Assembly: GCA_963924565.1 (NCBI GenBank)
Contig: OZ004609.1
Coordinates: 21,390,001 to 21,454,000, forward strand
DNA from: Ascidiella aspersa
Lineage: Eukaryota
Direction of reading: 5' to 3'
DNA: 64,000 nt
Part shown: in pieces, positions 21,813 through 55,000 of the stretch
How positions within the stretch are numbered: the stretch's first letter is position 1
Layout: the number at the start of each line of letters is the position of its first letter
The notes under the pieces: model-generated
Databases searched by the model: none
Told to the model about the DNA's origin: nothing
Seen by the model: only the letters and a program-made list of their open reading frames with translations
Translations under genes and position numbers: made by a program

Positions 21813-24800
21813 ATGAACAAACTCGCGTCATTTTTTCTGGCGCTGTGCCTTTTTGGAGCATGCACATGTAAGTGACAATATCATAAGATAATATATGTTT
21901 TTTAAGATTTTATAATATTGCTATATTGGTTATCGAGTTTTTTTTACTAATTATTTATAATTCTTGTCTGCGTAACATATCATTGATCAGTTGGAAATTT
22001 ATCCAATGGTTTCAACACTTCTAACAATACGCAGTAAAATTCTGGAAAACACATTTTAAATCGTAAGCATGTAGCAGGTAGACTTGCTTATTACACGATA
22101 TGTTGTTGTGTTTCTAACGTAATTTAATGTAATTCCAGGCAACCCTCTTCTCGAGCCCCCGGCACCCTTTGTTGCTACGGACGAATATGAAATCAACCAG
22201 GCAGCCCGTAAGTTTCATATTATGATTAGTTTTATGTAAAACTGGATTTAACTGTGAAATTAGTGTGCAAACTGTTCTAAAAAGCTTATTCTATGTGAAC
22301 CCAACTTTGTTATACTCAAATTGGCCAGTTTTCATATAAAACAGTTAACTTGCAAAGTAAAAGAAAATTATTTGTCTAATATTATATGCATTATTTTGGT
22401 ATTTGAAGAAAAGCAGCGTAGTGCATCGACCACCGAATGCATGACTGCAAATGAATGTATGGCATCATGCCCGGTGGGATACAAATTTGATGGCAACTGC
22501 ACTTGTGAATGCAAAACCGATGGGGTGTTCGAGGGCGACATCATTGTAGACAGTAAGTACATTTAGTAGGGTGAAAATCATTGTAAATGGCAACTATAAA
22601 TGTCTTCTTTGCTATCTACATATATATCATATTTTAAATTTAATGCTTCAGACACGACTTGAATAATAGTAGACTTTGTCACTTCAAAATAACATTTTTC
22701 GCTATATGTAATGTTACAAAACCCTTTTTTTTATGTCACTTCTTAATTGATGGGTGTACTAACTGCACATGTTTGCCAATAACCAAGTCATTTTAACCAA
22801 AACTAGAGGCAACGGGAACATTCGACGCCGTGCTAACCCAGTATGGAGCAAAACAATGCGACGGAAAAGAAACTCGAGGAGCCATGAAAGACACATCAAG
22901 GGAGTGGCCCAAGACAGGAGATGTTGTTACCATTCCGATCGCCTTTGATTCACAAATAGGTAAGCGCTATATTATGTCTGGCTTTAAATAATTATTTTTT
23001 TAGGAATGTAAAACCACCGTCCGGGTATGTTTCGCACAACCAGACATTGGTAAAAAGTGGTGGCAAGTTAATTGACATGGGTATAAGTTGGGTTGTTTTG
23101 TCTAATTGGGTTGGTTAAAAGTTACCGTTGGACGGGATTACTATTTAATAAAAACACTGATTTTAATTATCTATGACCCTATAATGTAATGCTAGTCTTG
23201 TGTGGCATGTTAACGTTTTTTGGTAGGCTAATCAGACATCGTAAGCCTATACTTATGAAGGCGATGAAATTCCGATTTACCAAAAAAAAAGTAATGCTGT
23301 ATACAAACTAAAATATGCATAGCTACGTTCCACCTTTAAATCTAAATCAGGTGGTTATACGTATAGCGGTGATGTCGCCTTTCGACATTTGAAAGATTCC
23401 GTGACCCGTAGCATGTTTATTGAAAAATTACTCACAATGATGATAAACTTTTAACTGTTCATTTGGCACATGCGTCACAAAACTAAATGTATCACCGAGT
23501 TTCTCACCTATCTTGTGTCTACGCCTGAGTTACGTTAGACAATGGGTCATCGGGAAATGAGGCATACTGTTGTTTAACGGTCGCACACAAATCATAAATT
23601 TCGTACAGCACTCTACATAGCGTTTATTGTAAATAAAAAAAAGTTATTTCAACTTTGCGAGTAACAACCATGAGAACCTAAAATTTCTATGACACACTTT
23701 TTCACATAATACAAAATTCATATATATTTTTCCTACTTTTAAAATTGAACCTGCCAGTAACTGAGTATACTTCAACACAGGAACCGATAAACGTGACAAC
23801 ATTTTGAGAGCCATCGAAAAATATCACGAAAACACGTGCATCAGGTTTGTTACCAGGCAAAGCGAAGTTGATTACATCGAGTTCCACGGTACACAAGGTT
23901 GCATGTCATACGTGGGCAAAACAGGCGGGAGGCAAAAGGTAAGTGTCGCAAATTTGCTAATGCTAATCATAACTAAATAAAGATCAAACTATTTGTAGTT
24001 AATTCACAAAAAAGAGCGACGGTCCCGATATGGCCCGAGGTCGTGAGTTCGAACCTCATCGCAAGCAATATATAGTTGTTTTTTTTATAAGCTGCCTTGC
24101 TTGCATCATTGATCGGCTGATTCGGTTAGTCTGACGAAGGCTTCCGGTGTTCTTAAAACCTTTGCATAGTTTGTCGAGTGCGCAGTGTATATTACTTGTT
24201 TCCCACCAAAAGAAATTTGTTGTAGTAGCAACAGCAATTCATTGACAGTTCACCAAACGTTTACGGCCGACTTTTTTGCAGGTGTACATCGGACCTAATT
24301 GCGACTTATCCCAAGGCACGATATTGCACGAACTCATGCACGCTCTCGGATTCTGGCATGAACAGTCACGGGGTGATCGGGACTCCTACGTCACAATCAA
24401 CTGGGACAACATTATAACCAGTAAGACGCATGAGTCATTGAGTCAGGTCTTTGATTAATTATTAACCTTCATTAGTACCATGTACCATTGACATAATTTT
24501 TTCATTCTGCCTTGAGGTCGATTTGCTAAAAATGTTTTCTCAGTCCTGGTGGTTTAAAATAATGTTACCTTATTTAAAATCCCCCTTTGTATTTGTTATT
24601 TCGTCCGGATTTTTATTTCCGCCGTGAAATGGCCTAAAAAATTGCGCTAAACACAAAACTTCAACACCATACTCCAGTCTGTTAAAAATGTCGTTTTCAC
24701 TTTCCAGGTGCCAAAGGAAACTTTCAAAAACAATCGGCTTCAACTTGGAACTCCTATGGCTCGCCTTATGACTATACTTCTGTCATGCACTACGGAGGTT

Positions 24801-27800
24801 ACTTCTTTAGCATCGATCGAAACAATCTGCCAACTATCCTGCATAAGCAGTAAGTGGTTGCGACGTTTAACAAACGTTTTTCCCGTTAATAAAACATACT
24901 AATCGATTCTAAAATAATCAGCAATTTTACAATCGCTTTCTTTGATATTTTGATATATTTTTGGTTTATAATATAAAAATAAAAGATGCTGAAATGATAT
25001 GCATTCGTGTTTTGTTTCAACAACAGAAAAATTGCAAAATAAATGCTATATCTTTTAGAACTGGTCAACCAGTCTCGCATCAAAGAAACGGTTTTTCCGC
25101 AGAAGACATTAAGCAGATTAACGCAAAATACAGCTGCGGAGGTAAGAAACAGTATTTATAAGCGCCTCTTTTTACTATGCATAAACATGCGGCCACGGAA
25201 GGTTATTAACTAAGAGTTTTTTTTGCATGGTTTACAGGTGGTGGTGGTGGTGGTGGTGGAGGTGCTACTACAACACCGACCGTCGCACCCATAACGACTA
25301 CCACAGTGGGCGTTTGCAAAGACACGGTAACCTCGTAAGTATTTGTGCCGTAACTAATAAAACCCTTAGAACTTCTAACATAGATTTTCCGACAAATCAA
25401 AAGGCTACGGTTTGTTCGACACAACAGGCAAAGTCATAGTTGTTGTATTCAAGTAGGGATCTTTATGATGCGAGTTGTGCCAGGTATATTAAGGCAATCG
25501 ATGTCTTAAAAATCTGTACATTTTCAGGCTGGTTTTTGGCATATAGGCTAACTATTTTTTTCTTGTTTTCTGAAAGGTGCGCATCCTACGTCAGTCAAGG
25601 TTTCTGTACGAAATACCAAGTTGTCCGCGACACATACTGCCCCAAATCGTGCACCGGTTGTACAGGTAAATCCTACGCGTAATCAATTAAAAATATCGAC
25701 CTGCCGCTTTGTCAGTTTTTATAACTTGGTATACTCGACAGGGGTTGTGATAACGACACAGCCGATCACCACCACGACAATGGCGACAACGACGACAACA
25801 CGAGCAACAACCACCACAGCTACTGGAAGCTGCCGGGACACGAACCAGTGAGCTTTATAGGAATAACCTAGGGCTATGCACGGTAGCATCAAGCTATAAT
25901 TTTAACCCCTTGAGGAACTACGTGGGTTCATAAACCATAAAACTAATTCATACTATGCGATAATTTATGTACCGCCGAATTCATTCTTATTGCATTTAGA
26001 ATACCTAAATACAACCCTGAATTATTATATATTATTTCTGGAGGTTTTCGTGGCTAAATGTACCTCGCCGCGCCTTGTGTGATGTCAAGCAATGCAATTA
26101 CAAGCCTTTAATCACTTTTTGCAGACATTGTTCCTACTGGACAGGCAAAGGGTACTGCACTGGTCAGTACGCATCATACATGAGCAAAAACTGCAAACAA
26201 AGCTGCGGCATATGTGCAGGTACCAACGTTCGCATATATAAGAGTTCCAACTAAACTGGTTACCAGGATAAACTATAATAAACCAAGCGTTGTTACTAGG
26301 ATACACCGAGCGGTAAATAGGAAAAAATCGAGCGTTTTAAATACGCCGGCTATCGTTGTTTTGTGGTACTCAGTAGAGGTAAAATTTAGTAAAAACAATT
26401 ACTGGAGAAATGGGTAAGGTTTTCTTACAAAATTGTATAAACGAGTAAAACATGCTGTATGGTAATTAAGTCGCAAAAACATTTTATTTAAAACATAAAA
26501 CAAGTAAGCATTTTCACTCAAAGTGTAATATAAATTAAAGCGATTTGTTCAAAGGTTTTGCACAACACGAATTAGCTGTTGTTTAAACAATAACCAGGAT
26601 TTTAATTGGTACCTACATGCAAACTAAGCTCTAATTGTCGCTTTTTATGTGTTTTTGTTATCAGGAAATACGTAACAAAGTAATAGTGTGAAAATAATTT
26701 ACAGTTACAGTTACCACGGTGAGACCAACTTCTTCGAATGCCTGCCTCGATAAGTTCACGTAAGTCCTTACTAATCCTGAAATTTTTACAATTATATTTT
26801 CTACAAAACTTTTTGCATCCGTAGTCTTATACAGGCACGAATTCAGGATTTTGCTTAAGTAAGGACATGGATTTTTCAAAAATAAAGTCACAAAGTTACA
26901 TACAAACTTTACGCCATGATAAAGTATCCTAAAGAACATCACATCGTTCGTTTATTTTATTAAAGTTTTCGTGGGAAAGTATTGATAAAGAAGTACGCCC
27001 AACCCGACAAAATACCTTTATATATTGTTTAGGACAGGTTGCCAATAGTTCCGTTTTCGAACCTTTGAGCTAAAACGATTTTATGAAAATTGACTAAGAC
27101 ATACGAGAAACATTATTACGATTGAAAATTGTTTGTGTTTACGACTTACGTGTTGTTAAAATTAAAAAATATACAGTTTTTAGGGGGAGCATGTCCTGTG
27201 TCCCGCCGGACCCGCCCCTATTACAATCGGCTGTACTTTTTCGGTTGCTTATAATTTTTTATTTCCACTTCACAGAAGCTGCAAATACTGGGAGACGCAA
27301 AACTATTGCAAAGAAACGCACGTCACCTTTATGGAAAGTAACTGCAAGAAAAGCTGTGGCCTTTGCGGGGGAGCCGTGTCAACAACCCCGGCCCAATGCA
27401 AAAACAATCACAAGAGGTACACATAAAAGTTGTCTATCATGTTTGGTTTTACACAAGATTCTTCGCAAAGGGATATCTCGTCGTAAAACTTCTCCCGGGA
27501 CAAATTATATAGGCCTAGGGGTTCAACCAAACTAAAAAAACGACAAGTCCTCATTGACAAACATCTTTTAATTTAGACGGTTATTGCATGATAAAAAAAC
27601 TTAAAAGCGATATATTTGCTGTTGGACAAGTTGGTGCGAAACACAGTAGCCTATAAAATAATTGAAAGGCGTTAACCATAAAAAAATTGTATTCTACACA
27701 TTTTGCTTAATACATAGTGCGAAACTCCTTTCACGTTTTGCATTGTTGATTCTAGCTGCGAGAGCTGGCAGTCCTTCGGATACTGTACAGAGAGGTACGT

Positions 27801-30800
27801 TACATACATGGCCAAAAACTGCAGGGCAGCGTGTGGATTTTGCGGCGTTACCACCACTACAACCGTGGTCCCCACTCAAGCAGCAGGGGCCGGAGGTAAC
27901 GACTTGAGTTTGTTTAAATCTAACTCTAAGTGGCAGAAACGTTTGTTCAGTTATACCAGTAAGAAAATCATATTCCGACAACTTCTGAAATATGTTAGTG
28001 TGCTGCCATCAAACTTTGCGTGATAAAACAAAGGAATTGTGTGCAAAAAATAATTTCAAAAATCCTTTTTAACATTTTTTAACCTAAAACTGAAACAGAG
28101 TATTTATGCTGTAAACTTTGATTCAGAAATATAGCCTACCCTTCAATCCTTCATGCTTTTAAAAATTATTCAAACACTATAAGTAAACAATTATCTGTCC
28201 TTAACATATGCGTGACTCAAAATTATTCACACTTTAAAACTATGCTATTCACAATTGTTAGGATTGTTATTCCTTAACATATGCGTGACTCAAAATTATT
28301 CACACTTTAAAACTATGCTATTCACAATTGTTAGGATTGTTATAATTTATTAAGGTATTCCTAATGGCGATGCATAAAAAGAGTTCTTATCGATTCATGG
28401 AAAAAAATTCTTGTTACGGTACCATGTAAAACTTGTTGTTTGTTCTCTCACAGCATCGTACACTGGAGGTTGCGGCAGGCCGGCTGTTTCCCTTCTCTAT
28501 CGCATTGTTGGAGGTAAGGCCATTAGTTATTTGCCTATATGCAGATGGTATTAAAATATATAGGCCTACACTTAAAAATTAACAACGTCATTGCTGTCCT
28601 ATCTACATCATTTGCCTATCATTTTAGGCAAAGAAGCGGAAATGAAATCGAGTCCTTGGTTGGCCAGTCTGCGTCAAGCTAACGGCCTGGATATCTGTGG
28701 AGCAAGTTTAATTTCAGACCAATACCTGATTACCGCTGCGCACTGTTTCGGCGGGTAAGATTGGCCCAGGAAATCAGTAAAACTTCTGATTCATATTTTT
28801 TTTTAATTAATTTACGTTCGTGAATGATCGTTGTTTACACGAGTTAATTTCCAGGAAGGAATAATAATATCAACACAATATTTGTTAGTTTTTATTACAG
28901 CGTTGAGACAATAGGGTAGCCTACTTTGTACTTTTGTAACTAAATCTTTTTTACCTTGGTAACTTTTAGGTATTTTTCATACCTATAACACTATTTTTTA
29001 TTACAGAACCTTTACCCCGAAAGCCGAAAATTACCACCTATACTTGGGAAAACATTATAGAAATAAAGCAACTACTGGACAGATCCGAGTCTATATTTCA
29101 TCGATCAAAGTCCATCCACAGTACAATCACTATACGAGCGAAAATGATATTGCTATCCTTAAGGTACGTAAAATACTTTAAGTCCATCGGCGGCGCACTG
29201 TTAATCACTTTTAGGTGTCCTTATATTATTCTTTGGTTGCCATTTATAAAAGTGAAAGGGTAAACTGAGACATAAGGTTATAAAAGTATCGTAATAAATC
29301 AACTTGACGACGTGTATTATTGCATAGAACCTGGTTTTACTATTATATATTTAATGGTAGTCAGCGTTTGAGAAACTTAAAACCCAACAAACGATGGTAT
29401 TATTCTTTTATTGGTAGTCTATAAGATTACTATTGCGCTTTAATAGGTCATGATTTGGTTGTGCGTTAATCGATTGTTTGCTCGTTCTTTTAGCTGACGA
29501 AACCTGTTGAGTTCAACGATTACGTTCGTCCGGTGTGCCTCCCGCAACCTTATTCTGAGCCCGTTACGGACACGCTAGGTCTAGTGACGGGATGGGGAGC
29601 CACAAAAAGTGGGTATTTTGCTTTCTCGACCTTTATAACTTACAACCGGATTGTTTAGTTTGCACGTTACTTAGCAGGCTTGTAGTTATCAACCTTCTCA
29701 TCCCGTGGACCCCTTTAACCGATATCATCAAGCTTAATTTCACACTAACAAAAACAGAGCCTGCAAGTAAACATATAATAACTCAAAACAAAAATAAGCA
29801 TAACCTCTTTCAAAGTGAAAAGCCGCTACTTTAGTACCAAATCATCAGTAATCCTAATCAATTTGCTGAAATACATTTTATTAAAACCAATTATGTTGTC
29901 GAAGTGAATAGCAAAAAACACTCATAGCGCACTGTGACGTAATAATATGTGAACTGTACCTTTAGTCTCCCTTGCAAAAATACCTGTACCCTGTTCATAA
30001 CTTGCTCCAATATGCAAATGCACGCGAATTTTGCCCCAACTAAAATGTGCTTTGTTTGGTTTAAATTGGTAATATTGTATAATGTATATAATTTAGTTAT
30101 AGGGTCTATATACCTTGGTGTTTTTAACATTAACTATAATACCGGTACCTATAAAAACCATAAGTAAAAAAGTATTTTCCGGTGGCATGGTTTCGGAACA
30201 TTTTTGGTTCATTAATTTATTCCAGGGGTTCTTAAACTTTTTTTACCGCGGACCCCCCAAATTTTTGTTTTTGTTTCGCGTGGCCACGTAGGCAAAAAAT
30301 AAAAAATGACGTCATAAATTTACGTCACACAATACAAATAGACTTCATAAATCTGCTGATTTCGGTCCAAACATGTGAAAGTGAAATGGAGTCTTAATAC
30401 ATTTAGTACAAAACCGTTTTATTTTTTATTAAACTGTTTTCTTTGATAAGTTTATTACTACTTAATTATACACTAATATTTCAAGTATGGCTTCATGGAC
30501 CCTCCAAAACTAGTTCACGGACCCCTAAGGGGTCCATGGACCCAGTTTAAGAATCCCTGATTTATTCGTTTACTGACTTCACCTATTGGGCCAAAATATC
30601 AGCCTGTTGCTCGTTAATTTGCACCAATATTACAACCAATAAGGGATAATTTTTTTTTTCAAATTTCCTCTTTAAACTTAAAAATTCCATCCTATTGGGG
30701 GAATTCACCCCTATGCTTTAAGCCAGTGCTTTTCAACCCGTGGGATGGTACGCACTTGTGCGGATCAAAAAATTTTTAATGCGGATGACTTACGTCGTGC

Positions 30801-31806
30801 GAATGAATGTGCGGATAAAAATGGTGCATGTTATTATTCTTTATTGTGTGTAAAACAGTAATCAAATAAGCTGGTGTGCCCACTTATGCGTACAGGTACA
30901 GTAAATATAGTCTCGTATAGTGGTTCATTGCACCTTAAGCTATCTATTTTATATCGGTCAAGGCTAAGCACACGGTTTTAATACACAAACCCTTTCATTG
31001 TTATTTCACCAATAAAACTAAAAGTTGCCAACTTACTGTGCATGTTCCGCGCGGATGGAAATTTTTCGAAATAAAAAAGTGCGGATGAAAATTTTAAAGG
31101 TTGAAAAGCACTGCTTTAAGCCATATATAGGTGATCAACGTAAAAATTATATTTTTACATTTGTCAATTTAGCTTCCAGCTCTAGCAGCGTCTTGCTACA
31201 AGTGGATGTCAAAATCATAAACAGGGAAGTTTGCAACCAATGGCTGGGACTACGTGATAACAAATATCAAGTTACGAACGATATGTTCTGCGCTGGGCAC
31301 GAAGCCGGCGCCAAAGATGCTTGCCAGGTATGTAAAGAACTTTATAAAGCGTAAATAACAATATTTAAAAAAAAAAGTGTTTGCCAACTTTAAGGAAATA
31401 AGGAATTGAGCATTGCGAGTATAGTTATTCGTAATAAAAACTAATCGATTAATCTACAATAGGGAGACAGTGGCGGTCCGCTAGTGCAGCAGTTCAACGG
31501 AGCCCACACCCTGGTTGGAGTCGTGTCATGGGGCGACGGATGTGCTGTCGCTAAGAAACCAGGTGTCTACACTAAGGTGAGTGCCGACCAAAGCTTCACA
31601 GAAACCAGTGTCAGTAAAAGCAGTGTATACTTGTATAGTCTTTATTTGTTTGGATACCGTGAATATCGTAAAACACTGATTTTCGCTTGAAAGGGCAAAC
31701 AAAATGTTTTCATAGTGGTTATCCAATGCTTAGCATAAACCTAACCAAACACGTTTGCACACAGGTTTCCGGCTTGGTCAACTGGATTAACCAAAACACA
31801 CCTTAA
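21813..31806 (+). CDS. Secreted multidomain protease: signal peptide, antistasin-like module, astacin (M12A), 4x ShK, trypsin-like (S1A) serine protease
   Basis: Exons approx. 21813-21867, 22139-22207, 22409-22552, 22807-22959, 23781-23938, 24282-24420, 24708-24849, 25059-25141, 25238-25334, 25577-25665, 25742-25847, 26125-26219, 26705-26759, 27276-27416, 27755-27895, 28454-28513, 28628-28754, 29007-29163, 29494-29608, 31173-31327, 31463-31576, 31765-31806 (22 segments as traced; the exact count needs cDNA), joined with compatible phases. Motifs: [19 protein letters not shown] signal, [21 protein letters not shown] Met-turn, four 6-Cys ShK units, R-IVGG, TAAHC, NDIAIL, DACQGDSGGP, then VNWINQNTP-stop; AATAAA at 32074. 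Confidence 0.9.
24012..24215 (+). mobile_element. Possible tRNA-derived SINE fragment in an astacin intron
   Basis: AGAGCGACGGTCCCGATATGGCCCGAGGTCGTGAGTTCGAACCTCA contains a Pol III B box (GTTCGAACC) in a T-arm-like stem; no full cloverleaf. Confidence 0.4.
28198..28343. repeat. Perfect 73-bp tandem duplication (2 copies), intronic
   Basis: TCCTTAACATATGCGTGACTC...GTTAGGATTGTTAT at 28198-28270 and 28271-28343. Confidence 0.95.
30223..30559. mobile_element. hAT-type MITE, same family as 36841-37221
   Basis: Termini CAGGGGTTCTTAAACT / AGTTTAAGAATCCCTG; perfect TSD ATTTATTC at 30215-30222 and 30560-30567. Confidence 0.9.
30724..31113. mobile_element. hAT-type MITE (390 bp)
   Basis: Termini CAGTGCTTTTCAACC / GGTTGAAAAGCACTG (perfect 15 bp); TSD CTTTAAGC at 30716-30723 and 31114-31121; repeated GCGGAT subterminal motifs. 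Confidence 0.92.
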
Positions 31807-32564: not shown

Positions 32565-35500
32565 CTATCTCCTTGCACCTAAAAAAATGTGTCGCGTCAA
32601 TAGTCTGTCTAAGAAAACTACATAAAAAACCTACTATGCAAATGTGCCGAAAGAAGTGCGTCCATCGCCGCTTTGTCTCGGTCGAGATTGCTAGATCCCT
32701 TAAGCAAAATAATATTACTATATTTTTATATAGAACTGAGCGCTTTATTGTTGTTTTTCCTATCGCTTACACTTATTGCCGTAAATTGACGATACACAAA
32801 AGAAAACCAAATGATCTGTTTTGTGCATAGCTCAACAAACAGGAGTTTTTTCAATAATATTTATATAGTTTCGCCAACCGCTAACCACAACTTTTTTTTA
32901 GCTTGTCCTAAAAAATTTAGCTAGTAAAAATGTGCGATTCGCGTTAAAATTAGGAAAAATTAGGAGCGGGATCAAAAAAACAAAAACTTTCCGCGATATA
33001 CACAACAACACAAGGTAAATAAATTTCAACGACAAAAGCTCACCTTGGATCCAGTCCGATGGGGTAATTGATTGAACTGCAAAAACGAATCTGTTGGTAA
33101 GAAGTTTGGTACCGAAGTTGGGGGTGTTTTGGAAGGTAGGGGAGAGGTGGGTGAGGTTCTTAGAGCGGACCCCGTTGCGAAAGGGGACCCCGGAGGATGA
33201 AACGGAAACACAGGACCAGAGAAGGGCAAGGGACTGGCCTGGCTGCTGTAGCTAGCAGCAGAGCTGGTGTGCTTTGAAGAGTACGCTGGTCCGGTGGACG
33301 GCGAAGTCGTAGGACTCTTGTAAAAGTCGTTGGGCGAGTGGTGGGTATAGGCGCCCGGGTAGACGGGCCTAGATGGCGGTTTCGGTGCCGCAAAGGTCTG
33401 CTGGGGCTTCCCGCTCCCTTCTTTTTTGCACTTGCCAGATAAAGTGGAAATTGTGGCCGGCGGCGGTTTGGCGCATTCGCCGTAGCCACGCGCCGAGGAA
33501 CCGCCGTTGACAGCGGTCTGTTGCTGATGTTGATGCTGTTTATGATGCTGGGAGTTGTGTTGCGTGGCGTGCTTTATCGCTTTCACTTTGCCCGTGTTAG
33601 GAGGATCCCCGAAGTGTTGTCGGGAGGCGGGATGGTGCTTGGACGAGGATGGGGAGGAGGTTGATGGCGACGATGAGGAAGCTGTTTGTGGTGGATGCGA
33701 GGACTTTTGGTTGGAAGCTGAAGTCGTCGCGTGTTTAAACGTTTTCGACTGCTGCAGCGGAGTTGAAGTTTTGGCGAGTTTAGACGCGTACTTTTGCTGC
33801 TGGGCGAAGCTCGACGCTGGCAGAGTGTTCTGCATCGCCATCTGTTGCATGCTAATCAGGGCGGCTAACTCGTCCACGCTGGAAGACGAGGTGGACACGG
33901 GTTGTTGGGGATTCACGGGTAGCATGGACGGAAAATTCATGGAGGAAATGACGTTGAGCATTTGATTGTCGAGCGCTGCGCCGCCCGGCGCCCCAACCAT
34001 CATAGCTGCGTATTTTAGAAAATCGGACCCGTATGGATCCATAATGTGGTTAGGCTGCGGCGCTTTCCCGGTAGATTGTTTGCTTGATTTTTTCGAAGGC
34101 TTTGCATTGGACATGGAAGACGAAATCACGCTTGATGGTACCGCTTTAAACAGCGACGGATTGGCGTTTTTCGTCGTCGCAACGGACGATTTCGAAAGTT
34201 CTTGACTCGCCTTGGAGCCCATTTCACTCCACATCTTAATTGTGTTGTCGACGTCGTTGCTGCTGCCGTGCTTGGTGTGCTTTATTATCTCGCTTTTGAT
34301 GTGCTTCGATTCGGCGTGCTTCTGCTGCTGCGCCTTGGCGGAAGCGGTTTGATGGTGGTGCGAGTGTTGGCGATCGGCGCCATACTTTGCGCTGGTTCCG
34401 GCCGCCGAAATATTGGACACCACGCTTGCGACCGACGTGTTCGTTTCCTTTGCGGAGGTGGAGTTTGGCGGGGCGAGCTTTGTCGCATTCTGCTGTTGGC
34501 TGTGGCTCGCCTTTTTGCCGGCGGCGGCCTCCTTTTGCGCGCTCACGATGGTCTGGTGCAGGAGGTCGCTGTGTTTGGAGCCGAGCAAGTACTCGGCGTC
34601 GCAGCCCAGGTTCAGGCTGATCGAAAGGCCGCCGTCGGGCTTGCTGTGGTCCTTGAAGAGCTGCTTAGACGCTTTGCCAGTGACGGGCGAAACTATTTCG
34701 TGGTTGAAGGTGTTCTTGCCCGCTGATAATGATGAGGAAGTGGCGGCCGGAGGACTGCTAAAGCTTGTCGGCGGCGAAACACTGGCGGTGGCGCTTCGCT
34801 GCTTCTCGGCTTTGCCCAGGCCGACGGACTTTTTGCCGACGCTTAAAATTGTGGCTGAAAGAAAAACGGGGTGATACAAAAACAGATAGAATAGGCTCAG
34901 TGACGTAACCTATTTTACAAACATCACAACAGATAACAAAACACAAAAAAGCAAACCTCTGAAGAGAAGAATTAACAAAGCCTTTCGTGAAAAGCGTATA
35001 AAATTAGTGAGCCACAGGTGCATAACGTGTATTGATTTACTCGTAAAAAAAAAGATGATATTTTAATTTTCCGTTAGGCACAGTCATCACAATTGGAAAG
35101 TGTTTAGTATTTAAAAAAACAAATTAAACTAATCTTTTTAGGTAAAGCAAAACCAGCTTAAACAGATTTAAAACGACAGAATTATAGGGCGTTATGTTTA
35201 CAGAAAATTTCCAAAATTTTCTTTTTTTCGAAAACTTAAAGCGGTTTACGAAGCAAAGCGATGCCAATTTAGAATGATCATCATTTAACGGTTTGAACCC
35301 TGGACTGCTACAGAAGTTACACTCTTATAAAAAATTGAAATAAATGGTTAATAAATATCCTAAAAGAGATTTTATAAATTAACCAATTTCAGCTAAAAAA
35401 GAGTAGTATATCAATAAATGTCATCCAAGCTCACCTTTCTTGGTCTTGTTTCTAAAAAAACAAAAGTTATTTTAGATGGATAAAATAAATTCCAAACGCA

Positions 35501-52000: not shown

Positions 52001-55000
52001 TAACACAATTGCAAACACTCAAGGCCCGTCCTTTATGGGTAAACAAAAACGTCTGACTCAAGACAGAAACGTTTTATGCAAAGCCACTTATCAATGCGGG
52101 AATTTTTGACCATAATGATCTACTAAACGACTCGGGACACTATATGACATATGACCAACTGGCAGTTAATTACAAATTCCACCCAAACAATATAGATTTT
52201 AAAACCTTTATTAAAATGATCGCTGCTCTCCCACCTGAGTGGAACCACTCCACAGCAGGATCTCCACCCGATACTAAACTAGTCACCACTTTAAGGCAGA
52301 TACTTCAGGTACATAACTCATCAAAAACTTTATACAATGAGATAAAAACATACACTACTGATCGTCCCCATAAAGAACAACGCAAGTGGGAACGGGATTT
52401 AAATCTTGTACCGAACACAACTCCTTGGGACAGGTTATATGAAAACACTCGTAAAGCCACAATTGAAACTAAACTGCGATCCTTTTAAATTAAACTTAAT
52501 CTTCGTGCGATTGTGACCAATGATGCGCTATTCTCTTTTGATATAACTGAAACCAACCGGTGTGTTTGTTGCAATTTAAACGTTGAAACAATTTCTCATG
52601 TGTTTTTCTATTGCGAACATGTCGTAAAGTTTTGGGAAGAAGTCACTGCTTGGATTTTAGCAAAACTTTTTATATCCCTACAAACCATTGCAGTAACTGT
52701 TCTGTTTGGTACTGTAAATGAGGATGATTTGCTAAACTGTTTACTGATTTGTGCTCGCTTTGTGATTTATCGATGTAAATATGCCAAAACTTTTCCTTCT
52801 TTCTTAATGTTCAAGAACATGGTAAAAACAGTAAAAAAATCAGAATACCATATTGCGCTAGGAAATAAGAATCTTGCTGCTTTTCGAGTCAAATGGTCCA
52901 GTCTGTAAACATATACCTGTCGCTTCTTATTAAGTGCTATCCATCTTTTATCTCTCGTGCGTCATTTTCTTCTGCCGTGCAACTTATTATCACGTAATAA
53001 AAAAAAAAAGTTTTGACAAAAAAAAAAAAAAAACTAACTATTAAAGTTATACCGTTTCTTCGAAGTAGTTTGATATGTCGCGCTAATCGACAAAAAAAAC
53101 ACCCGGGAAAGACGATCTCCGTTTAGTATTGCAGGTGGCGACAGACGTGCTTGTAATTTAGCCTAGTCCCGTACACGGATCTACCAAAATCAATCACACA
53201 TATTTCACGGTCTTGGTTTAGTTTTTCGCCTGAAGTTAACGATTGCACACTAAGCGGTTTCGCAGTTGGCGCCTGGCAGGATTGTCGATAACGCATGTGT
53301 TCGCTTTGCGTCTAAATGTTCGCTTTTGCTGGCTTTAATTGGCTGTTTCGGATGATTTTTTTTCTTGTTTATGACGTCATTACCATCGCTATTTTATGAC
53401 GTCATATCCGTCATTATTTTATGACGTCATTAACGTCAGACAAAAAAACAACGGGGAATTCCCTAAGTTGAAAATTCGGAACTCCTCCTTTTTGAATTTC
53501 TGGATACGCCCCGCTGTCTGTTTCAACCAACCTGGGCACGTTTTGATAGTAACCAAGCACTGCCTGGAAGATTGCGAGTTTGAACAGGAGTCACATTCGA
53601 TATATCAACCATTTTACCAGGACTATTTATTGCCGAGGACAATTGGTCGTAATCTTCTGCCACTTCAATCACTTCTGGAATTTCATCATCTCCTATAAAC
53701 AGGCAAAATATTTTTTGAAATTAAGTAAACAGCAGATTAAGGTCTGTATTTGAAATCAAGTTTAAATTATATCTTGATTTCACGTGAATAACAATTACCA
53801 GCTGTTGTGTTTAACTTTGACTCTTCATCAGATGACGTGGAAAAGTCATCAGATGAATAATCCCTTGATCTGATAATCACACAAAAAATATTTATGACAT
53901 TCAGTCATATTTAAAAATAATGTGATTCAACCTTATTATTTTTCCTGTAATAATAGCATAATTAGATTGATTTGTAGAGCAACGCTAACCAATCGTTCAC
54001 ATTAAATGTATAAATTCTTAATTCTTAATGACACTTGAAAAAATATTACCGCTGGGTGTATATTTTCTCATGATCCGATTCATCACTACTGCTAGAAAGA
54101 TTTAGTCGGTGGTGTTTCCCACTTGTATGATGACTACCTCTGTCCCCATAACCAGACCAAGTTGCCACTGAGTCTAATGTGGAAAGCACCACAGTCCTGG
54201 CAGAGTGTGGGCAAGTTTGTGGTCGATTATTTTCAAGGTCATCTTCAGCATCATCAACAGCTGCTTTTTCTGCGGTGTAATCCCCGTAAACAGAAAAGGA
54301 ACGCTTAGTGTCAGTTCCATTGGAGCCAGAAACTGGTTTTGATGGTGGCATATCCATCAGATCGTCCACCTCAATAGAATTAAGTAGCTCATCAAGATCA
54401 TCCAGTTCATTGTGATTCATTTCCTCATGAAAAACTGGTGCAGCAGCAGTAGAAGTGTCTACAAATCCAGCTGTCAATTCAGGGCTTCTGATCCTCAACT
54501 TTGTGGAATACTTTTGCAAGATTGGCAGCTTTAACAGCTCTTCAGCAGTGGGGCGTTTACCTGGATCTCTGGTTAGCACTTTCGCGATGAAGTCTTTAGC
54601 CGCAGAAGAGCAGGTGTTAGGAAGCACAGCATACTTACAGTTTACTATCTTATAAAACAAGCTGACCAGGTTTGCAGCATCGAAAGCAGGGGCCAGGGCC
54701 AACATCTCAAATACCAAACAACCCAATGCCCAAATATCTGACTTAAAGCTGTAGGGGATGTCCTGACAGAGCTCTGGACTTAGATAGCATGGTGTTCCTA
54801 CACATGTGCTGGCTTTGTCTAGTGTGTGGTCGATTTCCTTGGAAATTCCAAAGTCGCCTAACTTCACATCTCCACTCCTGTTGAACAGTAATCATGCTTA
54901 ACAATTAGTAAACCTAATTTAAAAAGTATCAAACAGTATTTAATGTATATTATTTTATGTTAACATGCTACTACTGAAATCAAACAGTAAAACTCAAGTG

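What the first reader, a model, noticed from the sequence alone, without database searches (positions are those of the whole stretch)
22438..22512. Antistasin-like protease-inhibitor module inside the astacin propeptide
Seen: [25 protein letters not shown] (C-x5-C-x3-C-xxGYxxDxx-C-x-C-x-C) sits immediately before the FEGDI aspartate-switch motif. Established: this spacing resembles antistasin-family serine protease inhibitor domains, where P1 follows the second Cys (here Met, as in the elastase/chymotrypsin inhibitor guamerin). Inference: the zymogen may carry its own serine protease inhibitor, released when the propeptide is cut. P1 Met does not match the Asp189 trypsin pocket of the fused protease, so the target could be an external enzyme.
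Basis: partly seen in the sequence, partly recalled or inferred. Interest (0 to 1): 0.7.

Follow-up and report, generated by a model that had tools for sequence, protein, structure and literature searches.

The report
Antistasin-like knot in sea-squirt astacin propeptides
Many secreted astacin proteases of sea squirts, this one included, carry a small six-cysteine domain related to leech protease inhibitors right in front of the switch that keeps the enzyme inactive; it likely serves as a folded cap that steadies the inactive form rather than as a released inhibitor.

Summary
The six-Cys stretch is real. It lies in a spliced, expressed exon of an 809-aa signal-propeptide-astacin-4xShK-trypsin gene, five residues before FEGDI. 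The window copy has no Pfam hit, but it belongs to a family: 24 of 52 astacin loci surveyed in this genome carry the full module, as do Ciona, Styela and Clavelina astacins, including the sperm Tast proteases. A profile of 42 copies ranks antistasin, hirustasin, guamerin and bdellastasin first in the PDB, so antistasin kinship holds. The inhibitor story is weaker. P1 Met occurs in 1 of 68 copies; Asp, Thr and Ser lead, and orthologs have Ala, Phe, Ile or Thr. None of 18 other module-bearing astacins scanned has a trypsin domain. What is fixed is position: the last Cys sits nine residues before the zinc-blocking Asp in 65 of 66 copies. Best reading (0.55): an antistasin-derived disulfide cap on the aspartate-switch loop. 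An elastase/chymotrypsin-type inhibitor stays possible (0.2). Structure tests were inconclusive and nothing was assayed. Pfam already auto-labels three Clavelina orthologs; ten literature searches found no description.

The parts
21813..21867 (+). Exon 1 coding part: start codon and predicted signal peptide (aa 1-18)
   Evidence: Sequence; junction 21867-22139 in RNA. Signal peptide judged by eye, no predictor run.
22139..22207 (+). Exon 2: N-terminal part of the propeptide (aa 19-41)
   Evidence: Junctions in contig of run X3; translation
22409..22552 (+). Exon 3 (phase 1-1): carries the six-Cys module and the FEGDI motif together (aa 42-89)
   Evidence: paralogs hold module and motif in one open frame too
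22438..22512 (+). Antistasin-like six-Cys module (Cys52-Cys76); residue after the second Cys (P1 position) is Met59
22528..22542 (+). FEGDI propeptide motif; Asp85 (22537-22539) is the predicted zinc-blocking aspartate, nine residues after the module's last Cys
   Evidence: motif and mechanism from PMC9629494 passages
22807..22959 (+). Exon 4: end of propeptide, an extra Cys107 (22857-22859), predicted maturation site Arg113/Gly114 (22875-22880), start of the catalytic domain
   Evidence: site inferred from register with crayfish astacin in the alignment seen
23781..25141 (+). Exons 5-8: astacin catalytic domain with [12 protein letters not shown] (24327-24362) and Met-turn SVMHY
   Evidence: Pfam PF01400 over cut-off on three exons; junctions; motifs
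25238..27895 (+). Exons 9-15: Gly/Thr-rich linkers and four ShK-like domains (aa 341-536)
   Evidence: Pfam PF01549 on 4 exon frames; Cys count; boundaries predicted from GT/AG and frame
28454..31806 (+). Exons 16-22: activation site Arg570/Ile571 and trypsin-like serine protease domain, to the stop codon
   Evidence: Pfam PF00089 on 5 exon frames; gene model; offsets of a second X3 contig fit the last exons

Best explanation
The stretch is a divergent antistasin-family six-cysteine unit built into the propeptide of many ascidian astacins, nine residues ahead of the conserved aspartate, and it likely works as a folded disulfide cap that braces the aspartate-switch loop and keeps the zymogen latent, not as a free serine-protease inhibitor. 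Shown: the sequence, its splicing, its family-wide presence, its profile kinship with leech antistasins and its fixed register to the Asp. From established astacin biology: the FxGD aspartate binds the zinc, and the propeptide is cut off at maturation. Inferred: that the unit folds with antistasin disulfides, rests against the catalytic domain at the end of the cleft, makes the propeptide harder to displace or clip, and leaves with the propeptide after cleavage at Arg113/Gly114.
For: (1) Register: last Cys to Asp is 9 residues in 65 of 66 copies that have the motif in the same sequence, 11 in one, while C1-C2 varies 4-8, C3-C4 9-12 and C4-C5 1-3. All 15 full genomic copies found by family searches blind to this spacing also give 9. 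(2) Three paralogs keep only two Cys in that exon, and the last is still nine before the Asp (L069, L070, L075). (3) The would-be reactive loop (P3, P1, P1', P2') holds the four most variable of 26 positions tabulated (3.3-3.8 bits). P1 is Asp 16, Thr 15, Ser 7, Gly 4, Pro 4, Ala 4, Glu 3, Gln 3, Ile 3 of 68; Lys/Arg 3, Met 1, whereas characterised leech inhibitors use Arg, Lys or Met (PMC6265900 passage). The P4 Val/Ile/Leu of the four solved leech inhibitors (S4 contact in PMC3014083) is kept in 6 of 68. (4) The module precedes astacins of four C-terminal architectures (none, TSP1/FG-GAP, ShK, ShK-trypsin), so it goes with the astacin domain, not with the serine protease. (5) AlphaFold2 of the closest short relative P0026 gives pLDDT 85-93 from the second half of the module through the motif, and its best structural match is the Limulus astacin zymogen 8a28 (Z 25.0, rmsd 2.4, 217 aligned).
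Against: The fixed distance could simply reflect shared descent of one exon; many copies are recent paralogs, and the library hits were found with a profile that held both module and motif. Crayfish pro-astacin has the same Gly five residues before the Asp without any module (alignment), and solved animal zymogens stay latent with unstructured propeptides (PMC9848320 section 2.1), so the cap is not needed in general. Two genomic copies lie on their own exon and do not show the register (L091, L092). Variable P1 residues are also typical of true canonical inhibitors (recalled), the x3 loop length is kept in 63 of 68 copies, and in the window's own clade P1 is always apolar or small. The first half of the module is poorly modelled in P0026 (pLDDT 63-67).
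Confidence: 0.55

Rival explanations
1. The module is a working canonical serine-protease inhibitor. In this clade (P1 Met/Ala/Phe/Ile/Thr) it would block elastase- or chymotrypsin-type enzymes, either on the zymogen (guarding it from premature activation) or after release with the propeptide.
For: Profile kinship with four solved inhibitors; Cys-x3-Cys loop kept in 63 of 68 copies; orthologs have near-canonical x10/x2/x1 spacing and three carry a precomputed PF02822 label; all 7 clade members have apolar or small P1; guamerin with P1 Met inhibits chymotrypsin- and elastase-like enzymes (PMC6265900); six-Cys repeats are described in a Hydra antistasin-like inhibitor (PMC7851590).
Against: Met is unique to this copy (1 of 68); 27 of 68 copies have Asp, Glu, Gly or Pro at P1; the window copy is two residues shorter than its orthologs between the third and fifth Cys; leech spacing is met in 4 of 68 copies and 0 of 24 genomic rows; the low-confidence model of the window exon puts a helix across the loop (residues 13-19, pTM 0.36), though the P0026 model does not.
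Confidence: 0.2
2. The module is a binding or folding aid with no part in latency or inhibition: it helps the zymogen fold, travel, pair up or dock on a surface.
For: Antistasin-like units occur in proteins proposed to be structural, such as sea-star and mussel adhesive proteins (PMC9382459 passages); the nearest Atlas models to the Clavelina ortholog's module include CRIM1-like clusters (TM 0.42-0.45, under the tool's bar, a lead only); a Phe-Asp pair after the first Cys is kept in many copies (Phe 42, Asp 33 of 68).
Against: Does not by itself explain the exact register to the Asp or the two-Cys remnants that keep it.
Confidence: 0.18
3. The module is a leftover of an old exon-shuffling event with little present function.
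For: Reduced to two Cys in 3 paralogs, frameshifted in 1; not found at 22 of 52 surveyed loci.
Against: All six Cys are kept in 24 genomic copies and in Ciona, Styela and Clavelina proteins; at most of the 22 blank loci the propeptide exon was not located at all.
Confidence: 0.07

Closest known systems
Antistasin family (Pfam PF02822; antistasin 1SKZ, hirustasin 1BX7/1HIA, guamerin 3BG4, bdellastasin 1C9P)
   Same: Six-Cys core with Cys-x3-Cys loop, Gly-aromatic and Asp-x-x-Gly in the long loop, terminal Cys-x-Cys; the five sequences of these four proteins are the top five of six PDB hits of the family profile (E 5e-4 to 0.65).
   Different: Only the six-Cys unit, not the ten-Cys leech domain; spacing 5/3/9/1/1 here against 4/3/10/2-3/1; no conserved Arg/Lys/Met at P1; embedded in a protease propeptide; no activity data.
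Solved astacin zymogens (crayfish 3LQ0, Limulus 8A28, human pro-meprin)
   Same: FxGDI motif, aspartate switch, HEXXHXXGXXHE, Met-turn, same fold.
   Different: Their propeptides are described as essentially unstructured (PMC9848320); here a six-Cys unit abuts the motif. The review's list of accessory domains has neither antistasin nor trypsin.
Tast sperm astacins of Ciona and Halocynthia (PMC6353882, PMC11673157)
   Same: Carry the same module in the same register: P0033 is Tast1 (XP_002131733.1), and it is visible in the four Ciona Tast rows shown and, in part, in HrTast2c in the supplementary alignments.
   Different: Tasts have TSP1 repeats and an N-terminal membrane anchor (PMC11673157) instead of signal peptide, ShK and trypsin. 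Neither paper's text or held supplement contains 'antistasin'.
Clavelina lepadiformis uncharacterised LOC143463330, LOC143463339, LOC143469186
   Same: Same architecture, module + astacin + ShK + trypsin, already carrying a precomputed PF02822 label; same clade as the window protein (99/99).
   Different: P1 is Ala; spacing 5-6/3/10/2/1; uncharacterised.

Membership tests
Antistasin family (PF02822) | Six-Cys core with Cys-x3-Cys loop and terminal Cys-x-Cys | tested here: met
   five Cys invariant and the other 90% or more in a 42-row alignment, six counted by pattern in 68 copies
Antistasin family (PF02822) | Profile-level homology to solved members | tested here: met
   42-copy profile ranks antistasin (E 5e-4), hirustasin, guamerin, bdellastasin first; the earlier 9-copy profile found none of them
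Antistasin family (PF02822) | Pfam score over the curated cut-off (21.2 bits) | tested here: not met
   Window copy: no hit. Relatives: 0 of 8 paralog frames over cut-off, 6 of 8 with sub-threshold hits; 17 of 42 library proteins at or over cut-off, 15 below, 10 none
Antistasin family (PF02822) | Spacing of characterised inhibitors, x4/x3/x10/x2-3/x1 | tested here: not met
   Window 5/3/9/1/1; met in 4 of 68 copies
Leech antistasin-type inhibitors | Ten-Cys domain with five disulfides | tested here: not met
   Six Cys only between signal region and FEGDI; definition from PMC7851590 and PMC6265900 passages
Leech antistasin-type inhibitors | P1 Arg, Lys or Met after the P2 cysteine, conserved among orthologs | tested here: not met
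   Met here, but Ala/Ala/Ala/Phe/Ile/Thr in the six other clade members; Arg, Lys or Met in 4 of 68 copies
Antistasin family (PF02822) | Antistasin fold with an exposed extended binding loop | tested here: inconclusive
   Model of the exon alone is weak (pLDDT 66, pTM 0.36); Atlas structure rows 1-4 for the ortholog are antistasin clusters but under the tool's bar
Antistasin family (PF02822) | Disulfide pairing first-fourth, second-fifth, third-sixth Cys of the unit | not testable with these tools
   Pattern 5-8, 6-9, 7-10 cited in PMC6265900; model coordinates not available
Antistasin family (PF02822) | Inhibition of a serine protease | not testable with these tools
   Needs an assay
Astacin (M12A, PF01400) | HEXXHXXGXXHE, Met-turn SxMHY, FxGDI propeptide motif | tested here: met
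Trypsin-like serine protease (PF00089) | His/Asp/Ser triad motifs, IVGG activation site, Asp in the S1 pocket | tested here: met
   TAAHC, NDIA, KDACQGDSGGP, RIVGG; Pfam
CXCXC repeat (silk/VEGF-C type; family recalled) | Tandem Cys-x10-Cys-x-Cys-x-Cys repeats with a Pfam CXCXC match | tested here: not met
   Single copy; no such family listed; 63 of 68 copies have 2-3 residues between fourth and fifth Cys

The most novel reading that the evidence does not exclude
Ascidian astacin zymogens carry a working antistasin-type serine-protease inhibitor in their own propeptide, whose P1 residue has been retuned gene by gene (Met here), so that each zymogen blocks the protease that would activate or degrade it, or releases an inhibitor when it is switched on.
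Probability: 0.2. Interest if true: 0.7.

Novelty: new variant of a known kind. Interest (0 to 1): 0.42.

Why it matters
Solved astacin propeptides are described as unstructured. A disulfide-knotted unit welded to the aspartate switch across many ascidian astacins, including the Tast proteases studied in sperm penetration of the egg coat, would be a different way of holding this enzyme class latent and a case of an inhibitor fold put to another use. It bears on how Tasts are activated, which their authors list as open. If the module does inhibit serine proteases, it would link two protease classes in one zymogen. The parts are all known families and databases already auto-label some orthologs, so the surprise is moderate.

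Tried and rejected
Pfam scan of the window module: no family at E<=10. Word-index homolog search with the exon alone: 0 hits of 1 candidate; with the 9-copy alignment: 1 hit of 1700 candidates. PDB search with the 9-copy profile: two unrelated weak hits only. Fold search with the 47-residue model: no Foldseek match at E<=0.001 (best rows ferredoxins, E 1.4 and worse) and no VIA match at Z>=2; the model is too weak to count either way. Atlas feature searches: best scores 0.78 and 0.75, leads only. The tree (27 rows; P0002, P0089, P0091 left out as truncated or redundant; only 3 non-ascidian rows) resolves the window's clade but not the deep branches, so a single origin of the module is not shown. 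Range outside ascidians is untested: the profile search over 1.84 billion proteins reaches only E<=0.001, and no FxGD-type motif was found by pattern in the four non-ascidian astacins at hand. CXCXC-repeat reading rejected (see membership test). The run index listed no RNA holder; expression evidence comes from laying reads. Earlier scan notes: 3 look-ups, nothing. Two papers asked for by id were not held, so the antistasin structure paper and the 2002 ascidian astacin paper were not seen.

Full report
Observation. window:22438-22512 on the + strand gives the 25 residues quoted. It sits in a 144-nt exon (22409-22552) that also holds FEGDI five residues later. A contig of run X3 shows the first seven introns removed at GT..AG, and RNA reads of run X4 span two of these junctions (3 reads and 1 read). 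Built from these and from splice signals, the gene has 22 exons and 809 residues without a stop: signal peptide, propeptide, astacin domain, four ShK-like domains, trypsin domain. No single contig bridges the astacin and trypsin halves; a second X3 contig covers the 3' exons, and five relatives hold both domains in one protein. The named relatives are all ascidians, so the window is most likely from one (inference).

Is it antistasin-like? The window copy has no Pfam hit. A search of the genome with the exon found eight more copies before FxGD-type motifs among 32 matches; 6 of 8 give sub-threshold PF02822 hits. The PF02822 search of the genome gave 21 matches, six of them upstream of astacin exons, two of these clearly over the cut-off. 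A profile search of 1.84 billion proteins returned 48 hits: 41 are module-plus-motif sequences, 7 are other Cys-rich repeat proteins, 5 of which hit PF02822. Of those 41 plus P0002, 17 reach the Pfam cut-off, 15 hit below it and 10 do not hit. A profile of 42 copies ranks the five PDB sequences of antistasin, hirustasin, guamerin and bdellastasin above everything else (6 hits in all); a 9-copy profile had not. The window exon scores 17.1 bits on a module-only profile built without it, above 2000 of 2000 shuffles that keep the Cys positions. Kinship is therefore supported, with the window copy a divergent member: spacing 5/3/9/1/1 against 4/3/10/2-3/1 in the solved inhibitors and 5-6/3/10/2/1 in its orthologs.

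How widespread? I took 51 stretches of up to 9.9 kb around astacin exons picked from the 108 matches, 52 loci with the window. 24 carry the full module in one frame with the Asp motif, 1 carries it with a frameshift (L055), 2 on an exon of its own (L091, L092), 3 keep a two-Cys remnant (L069, L070, L075), and 22 show none, mostly without the propeptide exon being located. Of 29 module-bearing clusters looked up, 13 are named: Ciona, Styela, Clavelina. P0033 is Ciona Tast1, and the module is visible in the Tast alignments of both Tast papers' supplements. Range beyond ascidians was not established.

What is conserved? I tabulated 68 copies: 24 genomic and 44 from libraries; 3 of 47 library proteins and 2 genomic copies missed the pattern, the latter two were read separately. 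The last Cys lies nine residues before the Asp in 65 of the 66 rows with the motif, and in both extra genomic copies. Fifteen genomic copies found without using that spacing all give nine, as do the three two-Cys remnants. These are not independent events: many are close paralogs. By contrast the loop that binds the protease in leech inhibitors holds the most variable positions. P1 is Asp 16, Thr 15, Ser 7, Gly 4, Pro 4, Ala 4, Glu 3, Gln 3, Ile 3, Phe 2, Lys 2, Asn 2, Met 1, Arg 1, Leu 1. In the tree the window protein falls in a 99/99 clade of seven, with P1 Met, Ala, Ala, Ala, Phe, Ile, Thr. The guamerin comparison thus rests on a residue private to this copy, although the clade's residues would all suit an elastase- or chymotrypsin-type pocket (inference from PMC6265900). 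None of 18 module-bearing proteins with an astacin hit has a trypsin hit (two may be incomplete), so the module did not come with the fused protease.

Structure. AlphaFold2 of relative P0026 with 29 rows gave mean pLDDT 76.8, 63-67 over the first half of the module and 85-93 over the second half and motif; best match is the Limulus zymogen 8a28 (Z 25.0). The window exon folded alone is weak (pLDDT 66, pTM 0.36) with a helix over the loop and matched nothing. Atlas structure rows 1-4 for the Clavelina ortholog are antistasin-containing clusters, below the tool's bar. No contact is shown.

Mechanism. In solved animal zymogens the propeptide lies backwards in the cleft and a loop from seven residues before the Asp to one after it sets the Asp on the zinc (PMC9629494 passages). 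Here the module's last Cys is two residues before that loop, so the folded unit would sit at the edge of the cleft. I infer a cap that stiffens the loop and shields it, shed on cleavage at Arg113/Gly114 (0.55). Rivals: working inhibitor (0.2), binding or folding aid (0.18), relic (0.07). Against my reading: the register may reflect descent from one exon, crayfish astacin manages without a module, and real inhibitors also vary at P1 (recalled).

Literature. Ten full-text searches were answered. 'antistasin'+'astacin' gave 11 papers, seen as listings, one (PMC9382459) as passages; none of the titles or abstract starts concerns this fusion. 'antistasin'+'tunicate' gave 2, and 'antistasin'+'metalloprotease'+'prodomain' 0. 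'antistasin' does not occur in the main text of PMC9848320 (passages and section 2.1 read), PMC6353882 (passages, one section, supplement search), PMC11673157 (passages, supplement search) or PMC1867822 (passages). PMC7851590, PMC6265900, PMC3014083 and PMC9629494 were read as passages. Subscription papers, figures and the review's supplementary table were not seen, and the 2002 ascidian astacin paper was not held. Pfam labels on three Clavelina orthologs already show the combination.

Verdict. Real, family-wide, antistasin-derived; the released-inhibitor model is possible but not favoured. New variant of a known kind; interest 0.42.

Noticed in passing
window:22857-22859: Cys107, six residues before the predicted maturation site, has no evident partner in the chain; three Clavelina orthologs have it too (P0083 has an odd total of 49 Cys), P0080, P0081 and P0026 do not. 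It could link zymogens or pair with Cys19.
   Followed up: partly
window:21813-31806: The host gene fuses two intact proteases, astacin and trypsin, around four ShK-like domains; five relatives share this layout. The astacin review's domain list does not include trypsin.
   Followed up: partly
L069, L070, L075 (G000:C2 near 24.22, 29.67, 24.26 Mb): Astacin paralogs whose motif exon keeps only Cys-x4-Cys, with the last Cys still nine residues before the Asp.
   Followed up: partly
L055:4790-4990 (G000:C4 near 12.90 Mb): A near-copy of the L047 module exon has a frameshift inside the module: pseudogene or assembly error.
   Followed up: partly
P0091 (Clavelina LOC143463330): Carries the module and motif twice in tandem; a real duplication or a gene-model artefact.
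   Followed up: no
L024-L036 (G000:C2 near 24.02 Mb) and L021, L022, L037 (G000:C3 near 32.27 Mb): Two other genes with repeated antistasin-like exons; the first alternates them with Kunitz-like and thyroglobulin-like exons, by eye.
   Followed up: no
window:30222-31113 and 24013-24140: High-copy repeats inside introns of the gene (contig depth up to tens of thousands against about 65-120 for the gene).
   Followed up: no
window:49794-52908 (+): Stop-interrupted frames resembling a LINE-type endonuclease/reverse transcriptase, by eye.
   Followed up: no
window:44346-44939 (+), 54046-54891 (-), 33026-34909 (-): Neighbouring frames: a COMM-domain-like protein, a NEK-like kinase and a long Ser/Gln-rich exon, all by eye.
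   Followed up: no
G000:C1:16645000-16668000 (L010-L020): Array of Sushi-like exons that scored weakly against the module exon; unrelated to it.
   Followed up: partly
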